DNA of 64,000 bases, taken from Planctomycetota bacterium (GTDB taxonomy: Bacteria > Planctomycetota > UBA1135 > UBA2386). The position numbers were made by a program, and so were the translations under genes. Each line of letters opens with the position of its first letter. Within the stretch, counting starts at the first letter, position 1. Location of the stretch: positions 6,368,001 to 6,432,000 of the forward strand of contig OZ245838.1 in the NCBI GenBank assembly GCA_965228735.1, given 5' to 3'. Under the pieces are notes generated by a model, which ran no database searches, was not told the origin of the DNA, and saw only the letters and a list, made by a program, of their open reading frames with translations. Shown piece after piece: positions 53,601 to 60,303 of the stretch.

Positions 53601-54341
53601 TCAAGCGAAGACCAGGCGGCGCCAGCGCGGGCGCAGCTCGGTCGCGGTGGCGAGCCATGCGCCGGGCAGGCTGCGGGCCAGGGGCATCGCCACGTCATCG
53701 AATCGGGAATCGGGTCGCGGCCAGTCGCGGCCCGGCGCGTCGCGCAGGAAACGCAGCAGCTGCAGCACGGCGGGTGCCATCACGTGGCGCGGCGGCCGAC
53801 CGTGGTCGCCGCAGAAGAACGCGAGCGAGTCCTCGACGCGGTAGGCGCGATCGCCGAGCGGCGCGCCGCACTCGGCGCAGTGGTCGAGGTCGGGCAGCGC
53901 GCCGAGGTGCGCGAGGAACCGCAGCTCGAGTCCGAGCACGACCCGCGGCAGTCGCGTCGGCGGACAGCGCTCGAGCAGCGTGAGGCCGCCGGCGAGCAGG
54001 TCGTAGGCCGCCGGTTCCGGGCGCTGGTCCGGCATCGTGAACTCGCTGAGCTGCGCCAGGTGACACGCGGCGACGAAGCGCTCCGGCGACCGCAGCGCGC
54101 GCCGTTCGCGCAGGAGCTCGGCGCGGACGAGCAGCCGCAGGCCGCCGCGATCGGCGGAGAACGTCGCGCGTACTTCGTTGAGGAAGTCGATGCGACCGAG
54201 GAACGGCGAGTCGGGCCGGTGGGCGCCCTTGGCGAGTCCGGCGATGCGCCCGTGCTCGCGCGTCACGACGGTCACGATGCGGCTCGACTCGCGGAAGTCG
54301 GAGCGCCGCAGGATCGTGGCGGTCGTCGTGAGCTGCGGCAT
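53601..54341 (-). CDS. recO: DNA repair protein RecO
   Basis: ILRRSDFRESSRIV..TREHGRI..LAKGA, ELRFLAHLG and zinc finger CAECG..C. Confidence 0.92.
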   Translation of the reverse strand: MPQLTTTATILRRSDFRESSRIVTVVTREHGRIAGLAKGAHRPDSPFLGRIDFLNEVRATFSADRGGLRLLVRAELLRERRALRSPERFVAACHLAQLSEFTMPDQRPEPAAYDLLAGGLTLLERCPPTRLPRVVLGLELRFLAHLGALPDLDHCAECGAPLGDRAYRVEDSLAFFCGDHGRPPRHVMAPAVLQLLRFLRDAPGRDWPRPDSRFDDVAMPLARSLPGAWLATATELRPRWRRLVFA

Positions 54342-54449: not shown

Positions 54450-56465
54450 ATGCGCATGTGGGAGTGGTTGTGGCTGTTGTTCTCCTCGGAAGGGTTCGTC
54501 GCCCGGTGGGACTGCGGGGTCTGGCCCGCCTGGCTCGGCTGGCTGCACATCGTCGCTGACCTGCTGACGTTCCTCGCCTACGTCGCGATCCCGGTGGTCC
54601 TCCTCCGGGTGTTCTTCGTGAACCGCGAGCTGCCCGTCCCGCGGCTCTTTGCGCTGTTCGCGGCGTTCATCTTCGCATGCGGCGCCGTGCACCTCGTCGA
54701 GGCCGTGATGTTCTGGGTGCCGGTGTATCGCCTCTCCGGCGCGCTGAAGGCGGTCATGGCCGTCGCCTCGGTCGCGACGGTGATCGTGGCTGCGCCGGCC
54801 GCTCGCTGGGCGTTGCGGAAGCCGGCCACGTTCGCGGCCACCTCGCGGCTCGCGGCGATCCTGTCGGCGACGACGGACGCGGTGATCGCCATGGATCTCA
54901 GTGGGCGGATCACGAGCTGGAATCGCGGGGCCGAGACCATGTACGGATACGGCGCGGACGAGATGATCGGCGAGTCGATCGAGCGCATCGTGCCGGCCGA
55001 TCGGCTGGCGCAGCTCGACGCGACGACCGAGCGCGTGCGGCGCGGCGAGCGCATCGAAGCGATCGAGACCGAACGGCTGACGAAGTCCGGCGAGCGGCGG
55101 CCCGTGTCGCTCAGCATCACGCCGATCTACGGCCGCCGGGACCGGATGATCGGGATGGCCGGCATCTCGCGCGACATCTCGGCGCAGCACGCCCACGAGC
55201 GCAAGCTCGAAGAGGCCGCGCGGCGGCTCGAACGCGCGAATCGCCGGCTCCGCAAGCTCGCCGACAGCGACGCGTTGACCGGGCTGCGCAATCGGCGCGG
55301 CATCGAGCGCGCGCTCGCGGTGGAGGTCGAACGCATGCGACGGCATGGCTCGCGCGCGGCCGCCGTCCTCGTCGACTGCGACGACTTCAAGTCCGTCAAC
55401 GAGCGCTTCGGCCACGACGGCGGCGACGAGGTCTTGCGCGAGATCGGCAACCGTATCGAAGATCAGGTGCGCGACTCGGACGTCGTCGGGCGGCTCGGCG
55501 GCGACGAGTTCCTGGTTCTCGCGACCGACCTGCGGCCGGGCGAGGCGACGCTGCTCGCGCACCGGATCCGGCAGGCGATCGCGGACCGGCCAGTCACGAC
55601 CTCGTACGGGCCGGTCGCCGTCGCCGTCAGCTGCGGGGTCGAGAGCATCGACCCGCAGAACCCGGACCTCGAGGGGCTCGTCGGGCGAACGAGCGCGGGG
55701 CTCAAGGTCGCCAAGCGGGCGGGCAAGGACACGGTGGCGACGGCCGACACCGCGGCGGTCGCGCTGCCGGGGCCGAGCGATCTGCGCGCCCTCGCGCAGG
55801 CCATCGTCAACGTCGCCAACGGCGAGGTGCGCGGCTACGAGTTCCTCGTTCGCGGACCGCGCGGGCCGCTCGAGTCGCCCGAGCGGCTGTTCCGCGCCCA
55901 CCGCGAGCGCGACTCGCTCACGGACATCGACCTCGCGTCCCTCGACCGTTGCCTCGCGACGGCCGCCGACGTGAAGGCGGGGATGCGGGTGCACGTCAAT
56001 CTGCTGCCGTCGACGCTCATCGAATCGGACGTCGACAAGCTCGGGGAGCAGATTGCCGCCGCCCGCGAGCCGCGCAACCTGTATCTCGAGATCAACGAGG
56101 CGATGCTCGTCGGCGATCCGGCCGCGCTCGCGCCGAGCAGCCGTGAACTGCGACGTCGAACGGGGTGTCGCCTCGCGATCGACGACGTCGGCTACGGCCG
56201 CAGTTCGCTCGAGGCGCTGCTCGTGCTCGAGCCCGACGTCGTGAAGATCGACCGCCGGTTCGTGCACGGGATCGCCACGGATGCCCGGTTGCGCCGGCAG
56301 TTCGCGCGACTCGTGCGCATCGGCCGGGCGATCGGCGCCGAGATCATCGCGGAAGGCGTCGAGCGCGAGGCCGATCGTCGCGTGCTCCTGGAACACGGCG
56401 TCGAACTGGCCCAGGGCTACCTCTGGGGGCGCCCGTCCGAACTCGCGCCGGCCGCACCGTCGTAG
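54450..56465 (+). CDS. Ethylene-receptor-like TM sensor-PAS-GGDEF-EAL protein
   Basis: TM domain with D..AY..IP and I..CG..H; PAS (ITSWNRGAE); DALTGLRNR; RDSD..GGDEF; EAL motifs EFL, DDVGYG, KID, AEGVE and QGY. Confidence 0.9.
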   Translation: MRMWEWLWLLFSSEGFVARWDCGVWPAWLGWLHIVADLLTFLAYVAIPVVLLRVFFVNRELPVPRLFALFAAFIFACGAVHLVEAVMFWVPVYRLSGALKAVMAVASVATVIVAAPAARWALRKPATFAATSRLAAILSATTDAVIAMDLSGRITSWNRGAETMYGYGADEMIGESIERIVPADRLAQLDATTERVRRGERIEAIETERLTKSGERRPVSLSITPIYGRRDRMIGMAGISRDISAQHAHERKLEEAARRLERANRRLRKLADSDALTGLRNRRGIERALAVEVERMRRHGSRAAAVLVDCDDFKSVNERFGHDGGDEVLREIGNRIEDQVRDSDVVGRLGGDEFLVLATDLRPGEATLLAHRIRQAIADRPVTTSYGPVAVAVSCGVESIDPQNPDLEGLVGRTSAGLKVAKRAGKDTVATADTAAVALPGPSDLRALAQAIVNVANGEVRGYEFLVRGPRGPLESPERLFRAHRERDSLTDIDLASLDRCLATAADVKAGMRVHVNLLPSTLIESDVDKLGEQIAAAREPRNLYLEINEAMLVGDPAALAPSSRELRRRTGCRLAIDDVGYGRSSLEALLVLEPDVVKIDRRFVHGIATDARLRRQFARLVRIGRAIGAEIIAEGVEREADRRVLLEHGVELAQGYLWGRPSELAPAAPS

Positions 56466-56486: not shown

Positions 56487-58061
56487 TCAGAATGCCTTGG
56501 GTTGGACCTCGACGCCCTGCGTCGCATGCGCGTCCTGCAGGGTCAGACGCAGGCGCCGCAGGCGCCGTTCGTCGGCCGCGAGCACGACGATCTCGAGGCC
56601 GCCGATCGTGATCACCTCGTCGGGCTGCGGGATGCGGTTGCTGTGCGCGATCACGAGACCGGCGATCGTCTCCCAGTCGCCTTCCTCGGGGAGCTGGCTG
56701 CCGAGCACCTCGTTGACCTCGCGGATCGTCGAACGCGCCGGGAGCTCGACGACGCGGCCCGATTCGACCACGGTCACCGGGCCCTGGTCGCTCTCCTCCT
56801 GGCCGGGCTCGTCGTCGTACTCGTCCGCGATGTCGCCGACGATCTGCTCGAGCACGTCCTCGACGCTCACGATGCCGGCCGTCGTGCCGTACTCGTCGAG
56901 CACGATCGCCATGTGCTGGTTGCCGGCCTGGAAGCGCCGCAGCAGCAGGGCCGCGCCCATCGATTCCGGCACGAAGAGGGTGTCCCGCAGCATCGTCGCG
57001 ACGCGCTGGTCACCAGCCGCATCGTCGTCCTCGACGAGCTTCAGGGCGTCCTTCACGTAGAAGATGCCGACGATGTCGTCGACGCGTTCGCGATAGACCG
57101 GGTAGCGCGAGAAGCCTTGTTCGAGCGCGGCGCGCACGACCTCGCGCACCGGCGTCGACTCCTCGAACGCGACGATGTCCGGGCGCTGCGTCATGATCGT
57201 CGAGATCTGCAGATCCTTGAGCGCGACGATGTTGCCGATCCAGGTGCGTTCTTCGCCTTCGAGCGTGTCCTCGGTCGAGTCCGCGACGGCCGCCATGACC
57301 TGCTTCTGGACCTCGGCCTTGTCGCTCGGCGCGCTCTGCCGGATACGCAGCGCGTGCAGGCAGAGCCTGGTCAGCAGCAGGAGCGGCAGCACGAGCGGCC
57401 AGCGCAGCACGAACCAGCCGGTGCGCACGGCCGGGTGCACGAGCAGCAGTGTGCGCTCGGCCCGGAACTTGGTGATCGCGACCGGCAGACTGCCGGCGAC
57501 GAGCAGCATCAGCGCGCCGAACGCGATGAGCGCGGTGAAGTAGAACTCCTCCGCGACCGCGAGCCGCAGCGCCCACAGGCCGATGATCCAGCCCGCGACC
57601 GTGTAGACGAACGCGACCGCGAGATACTCGGTGTCACGGCTGGCGATCTCGCGATGCAGTCGACTGGCGTCGTCGTCGCCGTCCTCTTCGAGTTCGGCCG
57701 CGAGCAGCGTGCGCGAGTAGCCGAGCAGGCTGGCGACGGCCATCGCGCCGAGCGCAGCGAGGAGCGTCGCCGCGAGCGTGACCGCGACGAACGCGAACGA
57801 CAGCGGCCCGTCTTCGGGTGGCGCAGCGAACTCGCGCACCGCGCCCGCGGTGCCGGCGAGGACGTCGGGGCTCAGCCCGGCGACGGTCACGGCCACGATT
57901 GCCGCGGCCGCGCACCTGTAGGGATCGAACCCGCGAGGATCGAACGCGAGGGTGTGGGGATCGGGGCCGCGAGGGTCGGGATCCGGTTCGTCGGATTCGG
58001 CGAGTGCCGGCTCCGGGGGGCTGTCCGATCGGTCGGGCGTGGGCAATGTGCGCTGGATCAT
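56487..58061 (-). CDS. Hemolysin/CNNM family protein (DUF21-CBS-CorC_HlyC); start uncertain
   Basis: TM region; IMTQRPDI, FSRYPVY, HMAIVLDEYG..GIVSVEDVLEQIVGDIADEYD and ETIAGLV. Confidence 0.88.
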   Translation of the reverse strand: MIQRTLPTPDRSDSPPEPALAESDEPDPDPRGPDPHTLAFDPRGFDPYRCAAAAIVAVTVAGLSPDVLAGTAGAVREFAAPPEDGPLSFAFVAVTLAATLLAALGAMAVASLLGYSRTLLAAELEEDGDDDASRLHREIASRDTEYLAVAFVYTVAGWIIGLWALRLAVAEEFYFTALIAFGALMLLVAGSLPVAITKFRAERTLLLVHPAVRTGWFVLRWPLVLPLLLLTRLCLHALRIRQSAPSDKAEVQKQVMAAVADSTEDTLEGEERTWIGNIVALKDLQISTIMTQRPDIVAFEESTPVREVVRAALEQGFSRYPVYRERVDDIVGIFYVKDALKLVEDDDAAGDQRVATMLRDTLFVPESMGAALLLRRFQAGNQHMAIVLDEYGTTAGIVSVEDVLEQIVGDIADEYDDEPGQEESDQGPVTVVESGRVVELPARSTIREVNEVLGSQLPEEGDWETIAGLVIAHSNRIPQPDEVITIGGLEIVVLAADERRLRRLRLTLQDAHATQGVEVQPKAF

Positions 58062-58116
58062 AGCCAACGGGGTGGGGCCGGTGCAGCTTTCCTCGCGTTC
58101 GGTCCGCGGATCGGGC

Positions 58117-60090
58117 TCAGTCCTTTGCCGGCCCCGGCGTCGGTCCCTGGCTCGGGCCGGGATCCTCGCTCGGCGTCGCCGCGACGGGCTCGACGTCGTC
58201 CGCCTCGGTCGGGTCCGCCGAGAACCGGTTGCGGCCGCGGTCCTTGCTCGCGTACAGCGCCTGGTCGGCGCGGTGCAGGATCGTCTCCCAGGTGTCGCCG
58301 TAGCGGCTGGTGGCGAGCCCGATCGACACGGTCAATGGCAGGCCGATCTCCCGGCCGCGGTTCTCGATGGCGGTGTGCAGGCGGGCGGCGAGCACGCTGG
58401 CTTCTGCCGTCGACGTCTCGGGCAGCATCACGAGGAACTCCTCGCCGCCGTAGCGACTCACGGAATCCGATCGCCGGACCGTGTGGCGCAGCACATCGGC
58501 CGTGACGCGCAGCGCGTGGTCGCCCTGCAGGTGGCCGTAGGAGTCGTTGAGCTGCTTGAAGTAGTCGAGGTCGCAGAGCAGCAGCGTGAGAGCGGTGCCC
58601 GTGCGCGCCGACCGCGCCATCTCCTGATCGAGGTAGTGCAGCCCCATCGTGCGGTTGAGCAGGCGCGTCAGACCGTCGGTCGACGCGAACTTCTGCGCCC
58701 GTTCCGCGCGCTTGCGCAGCAGCAGGTTCTCGATCAGCAGCGTGCCGGTGAGGCCGATCGTCGTCGCCAGGCGCACATCGATGATCGGGCGGATCGGCTC
58801 GTGGGTGAGCGAGCGGTCCAGCACGAGAACGGCCGGCGACTCGAACTCGGAGTTGAGCGGCACGACGAGCGCCTCGTCGGTCCCGAGGCGATCGAGCAGG
58901 CCGGCGCGCGGACCGCTGTCGTCGCCTTCGGCGCCGTCGCCACTCGCGGCCTCGAGGCGTTGCGGGCGGGTGCTGTCGAGCGCGAGCCGGAGCAGCGCGG
59001 CCTCGGCTTCGGTCGGCGTCACGACGGTCGCGGCGAGCGGGCGCGCGGAGAGATCGAACTTGGCGCGCAGGATGAGCTTGCCGCGGCGGCGGCACCACTT
59101 CGCGAGCACCGCGCGATCGTAGCCGCCGTGGCGTACGGCAGCCGCTACCAGCGCCGTCACGATGCCGCGGTACGACCGCGAACCCGAGCAGCTCAGCAAC
59201 GTGAGGGTCAGCTCGTCGGCCGAGATGTGCGGCGCGCTCTGATCGTCGTCACCGAGGGTGCCGGTGTCGCGCACGAACATGCCGGCCGTGCCGAGGTCTG
59301 GCTGCGAGAAGTCCAGACCGACGGCTTCGAGGTGAGTGGTCACGGCGGTGCGCGTGGCCGCGATCCGCTCGCGTTCCTCGGCCGACGGTGGTGTGGCGTC
59401 GTCCGCGGGGGCGCCGAAGCCGGCGAGCAGTGCGATCCGTTCGGCGCGATGCAGCAGCTCGGCGGTGGCGCTGTCGGCCTGGTCCCGGGTGTCGGCCTGG
59501 GCGGCGGCCGGCGCGGCGGCCCGGGCGGCGTCCTGCACGGCGGCCGGCAGGTGCCAGGTCAGCAGTTCGGCGATCGCCGAATGCGCGTCGAGCGGGTTGC
59601 CGTCGTGCATGCGCGCCAACCGGTCGAGCCATTGCCCGCTGCGATAGAGCAGTCCGAGGAGGTAGAGCGCCTCGGGGTCGAACGCGCGATCGTCCTCGCC
59701 GCGTTCGGCCGCGAGCAGCTGTGCTGCGTGCGCAGTGCCGATCGACTGCATCCACAGCTGCCGGATCCCCGTCGTGCCGCTGAGGCCCCGCTCGGCGGTC
59801 GCGATCAGACGGGTGCCCGCGTGCTGCCCGAGTGCTCCGACGATCCGCGCGATGGTCCACGGCTCGGGGCTATCGCCGTAGACCGGCGCACTGACGGCGC
59901 GCAGGCCGCGCAGCACGGCCGGCGGGTCGAGCGCGAGCAGGTCGCGGATCTGCGTCTCCGCGAGCCGGTCCGCGCCGACGCGGCGCCGCACGCGGCGTCG
60001 CAGATCGCAGATCGCGAGGATCGACGGCATCGTCGCGAGCAGCGCGGCGCCACGGATCGGGCTGGCGGGAGTTGGCGTGGGAGAGGACAC
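58117..60090 (-). CDS. Diguanylate cyclase with N-terminal HDOD-like and GAF-like regions
   Basis: DPPAVLRGLR..LWMQSIGTA..LLGLL (HDOD-like); TDGLTRLLNR, DLDYFKQLND and RRSD..RYGGEEF. Confidence 0.85.
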   Translation of the reverse strand: MSSPTPTPASPIRGAALLATMPSILAICDLRRRVRRRVGADRLAETQIRDLLALDPPAVLRGLRAVSAPVYGDSPEPWTIARIVGALGQHAGTRLIATAERGLSGTTGIRQLWMQSIGTAHAAQLLAAERGEDDRAFDPEALYLLGLLYRSGQWLDRLARMHDGNPLDAHSAIAELLTWHLPAAVQDAARAAAPAAAQADTRDQADSATAELLHRAERIALLAGFGAPADDATPPSAEERERIAATRTAVTTHLEAVGLDFSQPDLGTAGMFVRDTGTLGDDDQSAPHISADELTLTLLSCSGSRSYRGIVTALVAAAVRHGGYDRAVLAKWCRRRGKLILRAKFDLSARPLAATVVTPTEAEAALLRLALDSTRPQRLEAASGDGAEGDDSGPRAGLLDRLGTDEALVVPLNSEFESPAVLVLDRSLTHEPIRPIIDVRLATTIGLTGTLLIENLLLRKRAERAQKFASTDGLTRLLNRTMGLHYLDQEMARSARTGTALTLLLCDLDYFKQLNDSYGHLQGDHALRVTADVLRHTVRRSDSVSRYGGEEFLVMLPETSTAEASVLAARLHTAIENRGREIGLPLTVSIGLATSRYGDTWETILHRADQALYASKDRGRNRFSADPTEADDVEPVAATPSEDPGPSQGPTPGPAKD

Positions 60091-60303
60091 AGCGTGTATC
60101 CAATGTTCGGCTTCGCACGCTCCCTCGCTCAAGTCAGGCTCGGCAAGCCCGTGCCAAGGCCGGATCGGGGACCGTTCCGCGGTCCGCTGCCCAAATTTGA
60201 TGATCGTCTAAGTCTCCATCTGAAAGACCCTTGGGGCCTGTGTGGCGAAATCGCACGGGGTTTCTTGCCTGTTTGGCCCGGCGTTCGCTCCTGGTCGCGT
60301 GCC

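What the first reader, a model, noticed from the sequence alone, without database searches (positions are those of the whole stretch)
54450..56465. Ethylene-receptor-type copper-binding domain wired to c-di-GMP synthesis and breakdown
Seen: the N-terminal TM helices read ADLLTFLAYVAIP..FAAFIFACGAVH..LKAVMAVAS. Asp (54558), Tyr +7, Ile +10, Pro +11, Ile +37, Cys +40 (54678) and His +44 (54690) keep the spacing of Arabidopsis ETR1 D25/Y32/I35/P36/I62/C65/H69. The output is PAS-GGDEF (with RxxD I-site)-EAL, not a histidine kinase. Known: Cys65/His69 bind the Cu(I) needed for ethylene binding, and the tested bacterial receptors (Synechocystis, Azospirillum) are kinase-type. Inference: a one-component sensor of ethylene or a related ligand that directly sets c-di-GMP and hence attachment or biofilm behaviour.
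Basis: partly seen in the sequence, partly recalled or inferred. Interest (0 to 1): 0.78.

Follow-up and report, generated by a model that had tools for sequence, protein, structure and literature searches.

The report
Ethylene-receptor sensor on c-di-GMP enzyme
A bacterium found on corals and seaweeds carries a gene that joins an intact copy of the membrane domain plants use to sense ethylene to the enzyme domains that make and break the biofilm messenger c-di-GMP, so it likely lets ethylene or a similar small gas set that messenger without a kinase step, an untested wiring of known parts.

Summary
Window 54450-56465 (+) encodes a 671-aa protein, ETR1_N (Pfam PF25487, 93 bits, cut-off 27)-PAS-GGDEF-EAL. 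It aligns without gaps to AzoEtr1, a proven bacterial ethylene receptor, and keeps all seven binding residues, the signalling Lys and the N-terminal Cys. GGDEF and I-site are intact. EAL keeps its catalytic residues but has a variant loop 6, and the PAS lacks the FixL haem histidine. The gene was inserted between cnnm and recO, has host-like codon use and appears under purifying selection. Identical or 98%-identical DNA occurs in coral and macroalgal metagenomes. The sensor family is large (6,763 clusters at 50% identity) and mostly kinase-linked; c-di-GMP outputs are a minority (14 of 210 close relatives), probably attached several times. Reviews already note diverse non-plant outputs, and this scan found the same architecture before on other DNA. 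Best reading: a copper-dependent, homodimeric one-component sensor that tunes c-di-GMP, most likely in response to ethylene. Ligand, enzyme activity and biofilm role are inferred, not shown. It is a new variant of a known kind, valuable mainly as an enzyme read-out for ethylene-receptor signalling.

The parts
54450..56465 (+). Whole gene, 671 aa: ETR1_N-PAS-coiled coil-GGDEF-EAL (start may be the second ATG at 54456; relatives start there)
54450..54527 (+). N-terminal segment (residues 1-26) with the RWxCGxW motif; C22 at 54513 = AzoEtr1 C20, candidate dimer disulfide
   Evidence: Cys in 322 of 330; 22-25 in predicted interface
54528..54815 (+). Ethylene-binding domain, three membrane helices (27-57, 64-86, 93-122); PF25487
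   Evidence: pLDDT 95.5; hydropathy
54558..54593 (+). Helix 1 residues D37, Y44, I47, P48 (= AzoEtr1 D35, Y42, I45, P46; ETR1 D25, Y32, I35, P36)
   Evidence: Y32 recalled
54669..54692 (+). Helix 2 residues I74, C77, H81 (= AzoEtr1 I72, C75, H79; ETR1 I62, C65, H69), predicted Cu(I) site
54747..54749 (+). K100 (= AzoEtr1 K98, ETR1 K91), signal-relay partner of the Asp
54846..55190 (+). PAS domain, no His at the FixL haem-ligand helix
55191..55259 (+). Charged, probably coiled-coil linker (residues 248-270) into the DxLTG motif
   Evidence: sequence; coiled coil inferred
55260..55730 (+). GGDEF domain: D309, N317, D326, RDSD I-site (55470-55481), RLGGDEF (GGDEF at 55497-55511), K422
55785..56435 (+). 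EAL domain: EFLVR (E464), N517, E547, E550, D578-D579, K599, E635 (EGVE), Q655; variant loop 6 DDVGYGRSS (56181-56207)
53601..54341 (-). recO, left flank of the insertion site (context only)
56487..58067 (-). CNNM/CBS/CorC gene, right flank of the insertion site (context only; start codon uncertain)

Best explanation
The gene encodes a membrane protein in which an intact ethylene-receptor-type domain is fused to PAS, GGDEF and EAL domains, and it likely works as a copper-dependent homodimer whose binding of ethylene would shift c-di-GMP synthesis against breakdown directly, without a kinase. Shown: the fusion, the residues and their conservation. Predicted: three membrane helices and a helix-1/helix-3 homodimer. 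Inferred steps: (1) Cu(I) is held by C77/H81 with D37 assisting. (2) Ethylene binds the Cu and changes the D37-K100 link to helix 3. (3) Helix 3 moves the PAS pair and the coiled-coil linker that sets the two GGDEF half-sites; the cyclase, feedback-limited by its I-site, is the more likely regulated activity, with EAL as counter-activity. (4) c-di-GMP then acts through the genome's PilZ protein or other receptors on surface attachment. On direction I commit weakly (about 0.55 given the rest): the empty receptor keeps the cyclase on and ethylene lowers c-di-GMP, since ethylene is an inverse agonist of ETR1 and reduces biofilm through AzoEtr1. In Synechocystis ethylene increases biofilm, so the direction is open.
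For: PF25487 at 93 bits. Gapless alignment to the 525-aa AzoEtr1 ORF of A. brasilense Sp7 (35% identity over 110 aa, E 2.6e-16) with D, Y, I, P, I, C, H, K and the N-terminal C identical. That receptor's first 130 aa bind ethylene, and its D35A and C75A mutants fail to complement (PMC11819568). All seven residues are kept in 317 of 330 collected relatives and in 13 of the 14 c-di-GMP-type proteins (P0005 has I74V). AlphaFold model: three helices, pLDDT 95.5. Homodimer score 0.70 against best control 0.00; that mark was reached by 20 of 30 solved homo-pairs and 1 of 23 single chains; the runs agree in at least 87% of contacts, partner pLDDT at least 79; contacts include K100-D37' and C77-C77'. 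No solved relative of this domain was found, so memory of a structure is less likely. GGDEF catalytic motifs match PleD and RxxD plus GGDEF are kept in 9 of 9 GGDEF-EAL fusions. EAL metal-binding and base residues are kept in 8 of 8 non-redundant fusions. Against a strain 2% different: 11 aa changes among 43 base changes, pN/pS about 0.12, one pair only. GC3 is 0.92, like neighbours. The genome has only 6 GGDEF and 2 EAL hits, 3 HD-GYP-motif proteins and one PilZ with RxxxR/DxSxxG motifs. Habitat by laid contigs: coral (one study) and macroalgae (one study); algae and seawater photochemistry produce ethylene (PMC4036023).
Against: No binding, copper or enzyme data exist for this protein or its subfamily. 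Its RWxCGxW subfamily sits on a different branch from AzoEtr1 and the cyanobacterial example, and none of the tested receptors I read about is known to fall in it. Plant receptors also respond to CO and isocyanides (PMC13012798), so residue conservation shows a Cu-ligand site rather than ethylene specificity. EAL loop 6 departs from the usual DFGTGYSS, so phosphodiesterase activity is uncertain by the rule in PMC12900916. The late GGDEF helix departs from PleD (TSAGLKVAK versus ADEGVYQAK). The gene is patchy: among 60 relatives only G013 and G034 carry a fusion. My pattern found no canonical c-di-GMP motif in the five MshEN hits. Seawater ethylene is picomolar, below the 2.4 nM Kd reported for ETR1, unless local levels at host surfaces are higher.
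Confidence: 0.55

Rival explanations
1. Same Cu(I) site and same wiring, but the natural ligand is another soft Cu ligand (CO, an isocyanide, another alkene, a thioether such as DMS) or the copper load itself; ethylene binding, if present, is incidental.
For: The subfamily is distinct from the tested receptors. CO and isocyanides trigger ETR1 (PMC13012798). The family is very large, 6,763 clusters, and is found across planctomycetes, myxobacteria, verrucomicrobia and Hymenobacter. Thioether binding to Cu(I) is my own inference.
Against: Every residue tied to high-affinity ethylene binding is kept, including Asp rather than the low-affinity Asn. The receptors with this set that the papers report as tested do bind ethylene.
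Confidence: 0.25
2. The sensor works, but only one output is enzymatic: a regulated cyclase with an EAL domain that binds c-di-GMP or is weakly active (or the reverse). This modifies the best explanation rather than replacing it.
For: Loop 6 reads DDVG(Y/F)G in the whole clade and the GGDEF-EAL linker is only about 18 aa. An intact I-site suggests a feedback-controlled cyclase. The late GGDEF helix is divergent.
Against: All EAL metal ligands and the EGVE base are invariant in 8 of 8 fusions over 47-57% identity, which is not the pattern of a dead domain.
Confidence: 0.3
3. The membrane domain is now only an anchor and dimerisation module; the enzyme is constitutive or regulated through PAS.
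For: The window's domain has the longest end branch of its clade (0.57) and the lowest Pfam score among close relatives (93 versus about 102-131 bits).
Against: None of the nine key residues has changed. The four changes against the nearest strain in this domain are V/I or A/V swaps at non-key sites.
Confidence: 0.1
4. The fusion is an assembly or frame artefact.
For: The frame is open for 1,565 codons upstream, a by-product of 71% GC.
Against: Whole 6-kb stretch lies in single contigs of two other runs, one identical and one 2% different, with no indel in the gene; co-linear full-length homologues at 52-57% identity.
Confidence: 0.01

Closest known systems
AzoEtr1 of Azospirillum brasilense Sp7 (PMC11819568)
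   Same: Three-helix ethylene-binding domain followed by PAS; 35% identity, no gaps, same D/Y/I/P/I/C/H/K and N-terminal Cys; linked to biofilm.
   Different: Output is a histidine kinase with a separate response regulator; different subfamily branch; binding and phenotype shown there, not here.
SynEtr1 (slr1212, UirS/PixA) of Synechocystis sp. PCC 6803
   Same: Cys-dependent ethylene binding by the same domain type, affecting biofilm and motility (PMC11819568 passages).
   Different: Kinase plus photoreceptor domain; signals by phosphorelay. Its sequence was not fetched, so the comparison rests on the papers.
Arabidopsis ETR1 (Pfam ETR1_N, PF25487)
   Same: Pfam membership over cut-off; Cu(I)-Cys-His site with Asp-Lys relay (PMC10266040); homodimer.
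   Different: GAF-kinase-receiver output and CTR1 signalling; two N-terminal Cys rather than one (PMC6682694). ETR1 itself was not aligned here; numbering was carried over through AzoEtr1.
Membrane sensor-PAS-GGDEF-EAL hybrids (RbdA/PA0861, MorA, MucR, DosP)
   Same: Same output layout; nearest solved relatives of the enzyme domains.
   Different: Input is an ethylene-receptor domain; below the NCBIfam cut-off of each listed equivalog (best 25 of 46 shown); variant EAL loop 6; PAS without the haem His.
CheB-CheR-PAS-GGDEF-EAL and REC-GGDEF-EAL proteins of the same bacterial family
   Same: Their EAL domains form one supported clade (100/99) with the fused ones. Three lie head-to-head with an ETR1_N-PAS-kinase gene (G002, G013, G017) and two more lie next to one (L053, L086).
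   Different: Separate proteins, uncharacterised. The clade also has members with no ETR1_N gene found in the genome (G011 twice, G051) and the window's own CheB-GGDEF-EAL gene, so the linkage is partial.

Membership tests
ETR1-type ethylene-binding domain (PF25487) | Profile score above the curated cut-off | tested here: met
   92.9 bits versus 27
ETR1-type ethylene-binding domain (PF25487) | Three N-terminal membrane helices | tested here: met
   Model helices 27-57, 64-86, 93-122, pLDDT 95.5; three hydropathy peaks; a prediction
ETR1-type ethylene-binding domain (PF25487) | Seven residues required for binding (D25, Y32, I35, P36, I62, C65, H69) | tested here: met
   Identical to AzoEtr1 at all seven; D/C/H from PMC11819568, I35/P36/I62 from PMC6586836, Y32 recalled
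ETR1-type ethylene-binding domain (PF25487) | Asp-Lys relay (D25-K91) | tested here: met
   D37 and K100 present and in predicted contact across the dimer
ETR1-type ethylene-binding domain (PF25487) | Homodimer | tested here: inconclusive
   Model supports it (0.70 versus best control 0.00; mark reached by 20 of 30 solved pairs, 1 of 23 single chains) but does not show it
Functional ethylene receptor | Cu(I) binding and saturable ethylene binding | not testable with these tools
   Needs the bench assay
Ethylene receptor histidine kinases (ETR1, SynEtr1, AzoEtr1) | HisKA/HATPase output | tested here: not met
   No kinase domain; it works like their sensor but is not a member of this architecture
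Active diguanylate cyclase | DxLTG, DxDxFKxxND, GG(D/E)EF, late Lys | tested here: met
   DALTG, DCDDFKSVNE (D to E after N; D in several orthologues), RLGGDEF, K422; activity itself untested
Active diguanylate cyclase | RxxD inhibitory site | tested here: met
   RDSD; RxxD in 9 of 9 GGDEF-EAL fusions
Class I EAL phosphodiesterase | Metal ligands and EGVE base | tested here: met
   E464, N517, E547, D578, D579, K599, E635, Q655
Class I EAL phosphodiesterase | Canonical loop 6 (DFG[T/A]GYSS) | tested here: not met
   DVGYGRSS here, DVG(Y/F)G across the clade; canonical motif as seen in the outgroup rows and MorA. Fits the partly deviating class II of PMC12900916
Haem-PAS gas sensors (FixL, DosP) | Proximal His in the PAS helix | tested here: not met
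   FixL RHEHD aligns with LAQLD; no His in that helix; which His is the ligand is recalled

The most novel reading that the evidence does not exclude
Seaweed- and coral-surface planctomycetes read host- or light-made ethylene through a kinase-free receptor that writes directly into c-di-GMP. This would be the first ethylene receptor with a second-messenger enzyme output. One sensor subfamily was wired to c-di-GMP at least three separate ways (PAS-GGDEF-EAL, GGDEF alone, HD-GYP with or without GGDEF). The protein would give a soluble-product assay for the on and off states of the ethylene-binding domain, whose transmembrane signalling is still unresolved in plants.
Probability: 0.35. Interest if true: 0.75.

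Novelty: new variant of a known kind. Interest (0 to 1): 0.5.

Why it matters
How the copper site of ethylene receptors passes its signal to the cytoplasm is listed as open in a 2026 review (PMC13012798), and no solved structure of the domain was found. A natural fusion to GGDEF/EAL gives a direct, countable output (c-di-GMP or pGpG) for ligand, copper and mutant tests, and a ready basis for an ethylene biosensor. Ecologically it would extend ethylene sensing to uncultured marine bacteria on corals and seaweeds and tie it to the attachment messenger. The parts and the general idea are known, so the value is testability more than surprise.

Tried and rejected
PDB sequence searches with two versions of the sensor domain found no relative. 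Fold searches gave only generic helical bundles (best Foldseek E 2.3; best VIA Z 9.3, rmsd 3.1, 101 aligned, within the noise range for helical bundles). No RNA holder was listed, which says nothing on expression. No sigma-70-like promoter was found and one terminator-like hit lies inside the gene at chance level. No repeat or IS end was apparent on viewing the insertion junctions; no repeat finder was run. A search for soluble di-iron monooxygenase (PF02332) rang nowhere, controls included, so it is uninformative. My script called P0178 GGDEF; Pfam shows a kinase, and it was dropped. The idea that the fusion arose from the head-to-head kinase/CheB-CheR-GGDEF-EAL cluster is not established: the EAL domains share a clade, but neither tree resolves a sister relation (bootstrap not settled; no clade test run). 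Literature searches for an ethylene-binding domain with GGDEF/EAL output found no paper describing or testing one. Lacey and Binder 2016, Wang 2006 and Binder 2020 were not held; Carlew 2019 and Papon and Binder 2019 were not looked up; Figure 2D of PMC7700396 was not visible. I recall that those surveys draw diguanylate-cyclase outputs, so absence from print is not shown. No supplements were read; those of the survey papers may list such proteins. A search for a paper naming all seven residues failed. A paper on EAL loop 6 was not held.

Full report
What is there. The window holds one gene at 54450-56465 (+), 671 aa. Pfam gives ETR1_N (PF25487; residues 29-118, 92.9 bits, cut-off 27), PAS (133-247), GGDEF (271-427) and EAL (446-662), with no kinase. 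It is below the cut-off of each named equivalog shown (best 25 of 46 families). The seven-residue spacing occurs once in the genome's six frames, expected 6e-5. The nearest named full-length homologue is annotated Planctomycetota (P0005), so the host is most likely of that phylum.

The sensor domain. I fetched the 525-aa ORF from the A. brasilense Sp7 plasmid record. Its length and its D35/C75/H79/K98 numbering match AzoEtr1 as described in PMC11819568 (section 6 read whole; passages). It aligns to residues 3-112 without gaps at 35% identity (E 2.6e-16): D37, Y44, I47, P48, I74, C77, H81, K100 and C22 are all identical. That paper maps D35/C75/H79/K98 to ETR1 D25/C65/H69/K91, shows ethylene binding by residues 1-130, and shows that D35A and C75A fail to rescue biofilm. 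PMC10266040 (passages) gives the Cu-Cys-His site, the Asp-Lys relay and the weaker Asn variant. PMC6586836 (passages) names I35, P36 and I62 as essential; Y32 is recalled. Among 330 proteins collected, 317 keep all seven residues and 322 keep the N-terminal Cys. PMC6682694 (section 11 read whole) suggests this single Cys may replace the plant dimer disulfides. The AlphaFold model has three long helices at pLDDT 95.5. The two-copy model scored 0.70 against a best control of 0.00; 20 of 30 solved homo-pairs and 1 of 23 single chains reach the mark; the runs agree in at least 87% of contacts; pLDDT is at least 79. The interface is helix 1 against helix 3, with K100-D37', C77-C77' and residues 22-25. 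This supports a dimer but does not show it.

The output. The PAS has no His where FixL binds haem, so it is probably a transmitter. A charged 23-residue linker leads to DALTG. The GGDEF domain aligns with PleD, with RDSD five residues before GGDEF; RxxD and GGDEF are kept in 9 of 9 GGDEF-EAL fusions, though the late helix is divergent. The EAL keeps E464, N517, E547, D578, D579, K599, E635 and Q655 in 8 of 8 non-redundant fusions, but loop 6 is DDVG(Y/F)G rather than DDFGTG. By the rule used in PMC12900916 (passages) its activity is uncertain but not excluded. The genome has 6 GGDEF and 2 EAL hits, 3 proteins with HD and GYP motifs among 5 HD hits, one PilZ with its motifs, and 5 MshEN hits in which my pattern found no binding motif.

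Setting. The gene lies on the opposite strand inside a conserved run. In 9 of 10 relatives examined, cnnm and recO are adjacent; the tenth (G001, same genus) has an unrelated 1.7-kb insert there. The gene is therefore a lineage-specific insertion and its neighbours say nothing on function. GC3 (0.92) matches the neighbours. Against a strain 2% different there are 11 aa changes among 43 base changes, pN/pS about 0.12, from one pair. Of 24 runs listed, 20 hold part of the stretch, in 11 studies. I laid 4: one macroalgal run holds the whole 6 kb in one contig with 126 differences, a coral run holds identical pieces, and two runs with coded labels are identical. PMC4036023 (passages) reports ethylene from algae and photochemistry, at picomolar levels in seawater. 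A planctomycete-macroalga association is the subject of PMC4042473 (search listing only).

How common. The domain hits 6,763 clusters at 50% identity and is over cut-off in 31 of 301 genomes drawn from the phylum and 7 of 61 close genomes. Of 64 nearest proteins, 6 share this architecture, 1 is a chemoreceptor and 57 are kinases. Of 210 proteins (query included) have c-di-GMP-type outputs: 9 GGDEF-EAL, 1 GGDEF only (motif GGEEL), and 4 HD-GYP type, one also with GGDEF and one lacking the GYP part (Pfam was run on 42 of them). With a query from the AzoEtr1-like branch, 0 of the best 120 of 949 had GGDEF or EAL. Of the best 80 of 488 genome loci, 4 had c-di-GMP outputs, 61 kinases and 15 other (some repeat genes). 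One of the 4 is in a cultured strain, Tundrisphaera sp. TA3 (HD-GYP-GGDEF). In a 59-row sensor tree (a chosen subset; bootstrap not settled) the window's protein sits in a supported group of six fusions plus one fragment (97/94), the HD-GYP forms make a separate supported group (100/96), and the GGDEF-only form pairs with a kinase. Several independent attachments are thus likely but were not formally tested. The fused EAL belongs to a family-typical clade (100/99) also used by CheB-CheR and REC proteins, five of which lie beside an ETR1_N kinase gene. This hints that the sensor feeds c-di-GMP in unfused form too, but other clade members have no such neighbour.

What is known. SynEtr1 and AzoEtr1 are kinases. 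PMC7700396 (text parts 1 and 2 of 4, figure not visible) says prokaryotic homologues have many putative outputs, including ones absent from plants. Four searches found no description or test of a GGDEF/EAL output, but the main surveys were not held or not looked up, and I recall that they show such forms. Passages of PMC5285503, PMC6944256, PMC10452086, PMC6508509 and PMC9603746 added nothing on this. PMC13012798 (passages) lists transmembrane signalling as unresolved and names CO and isocyanides as agonists. Four earlier scan notes report the same or similar fusions in other genomes; these are unchecked and are not counted as support.

Verdict. The feature is real, well conserved and apparently maintained by selection. 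It is a member of the ethylene-binding-domain family by every sequence test, not of the kinase architecture. I put ethylene binding at about 0.7 and the whole mechanism (ethylene-controlled c-di-GMP turnover) at 0.55; another Cu ligand is the main rival. It is a new variant of a known kind, interest 0.5: modest surprise, good testability.

Noticed in passing
G000:C1:1892360-1892749 (-) = L002:1465-1854; outside the window, same genome: A stand-alone 129-aa ETR1_N-like gene (PF25487 30.4 bits, over cut-off) directly after the portal gene in a prophage terminase-portal-protease-major head module. It keeps Tyr, Ile, Cys and His but has Asn at the Asp site and lacks the Pro and Lys. A 93-aa single-membrane-helix gene follows. 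No relative was found in viral contigs, phage records or the protein collection.
   Followed up: partly
L151:6044-6451 (+) = G134:C28: A second stand-alone 135-aa ETR1_N-like gene (E 4e-11), right after a phage tail gene (phrog_1101); keeps CxxxH and Lys, lacks the Asp.
   Followed up: partly
L155:3944-4789 (+), IMG/VR contig: A viral contig with a divergent ETR1_N plus PAS-like gene (281 aa, CGGNH), again followed by a small membrane plus coiled-coil gene (141 aa). With the two above, ethylene-receptor-like domains recur in phage contexts; a link to a holin-like neighbour is speculation.
   Followed up: partly
L014, L020, L022 (G002, G017, G013): Conserved cluster: ETR1_N-PAS-PAS-kinase (with a receiver-only gene in L020 and L022) head-to-head with a roughly 1,430-aa CheB-CheR-PAS-PAS-GGDEF-EAL gene and a further CheR-PAS gene.
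   Followed up: partly
L046, L057, L059, L061, L068, L079, L083, L101, L106, L108: Short proteins (214-338 codons of open frame), mostly from Phycisphaerae records, with ETR1_N and a tail with no Pfam output domain (one weak PAS hit): possible sensor-only or new-output forms.
   Followed up: no
P0057: ETR1_N-PAS fused to a chemoreceptor signalling domain (PF00015): a candidate ethylene chemoreceptor.
   Followed up: no
L026:6907-8652 (G001): The same cnnm-recO site holds a different, lower-GC (63%) insert of two small genes in a same-genus genome, so the site takes insertions repeatedly.
   Followed up: partly
window 58117-60132 (-): A conserved HDOD-GAF-like-GGDEF cyclase (RxxD and GGEEF intact) just beyond cnnm, present in all 10 relatives examined.
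   Followed up: no
G000:C1:3983511-3985970 (+) = L119: The genome's only other EAL hit is CheB-GGDEF-EAL without the CheR and PAS parts seen in relatives, with a more altered EAL (DDISYG, E to D at the second metal site).
   Followed up: no
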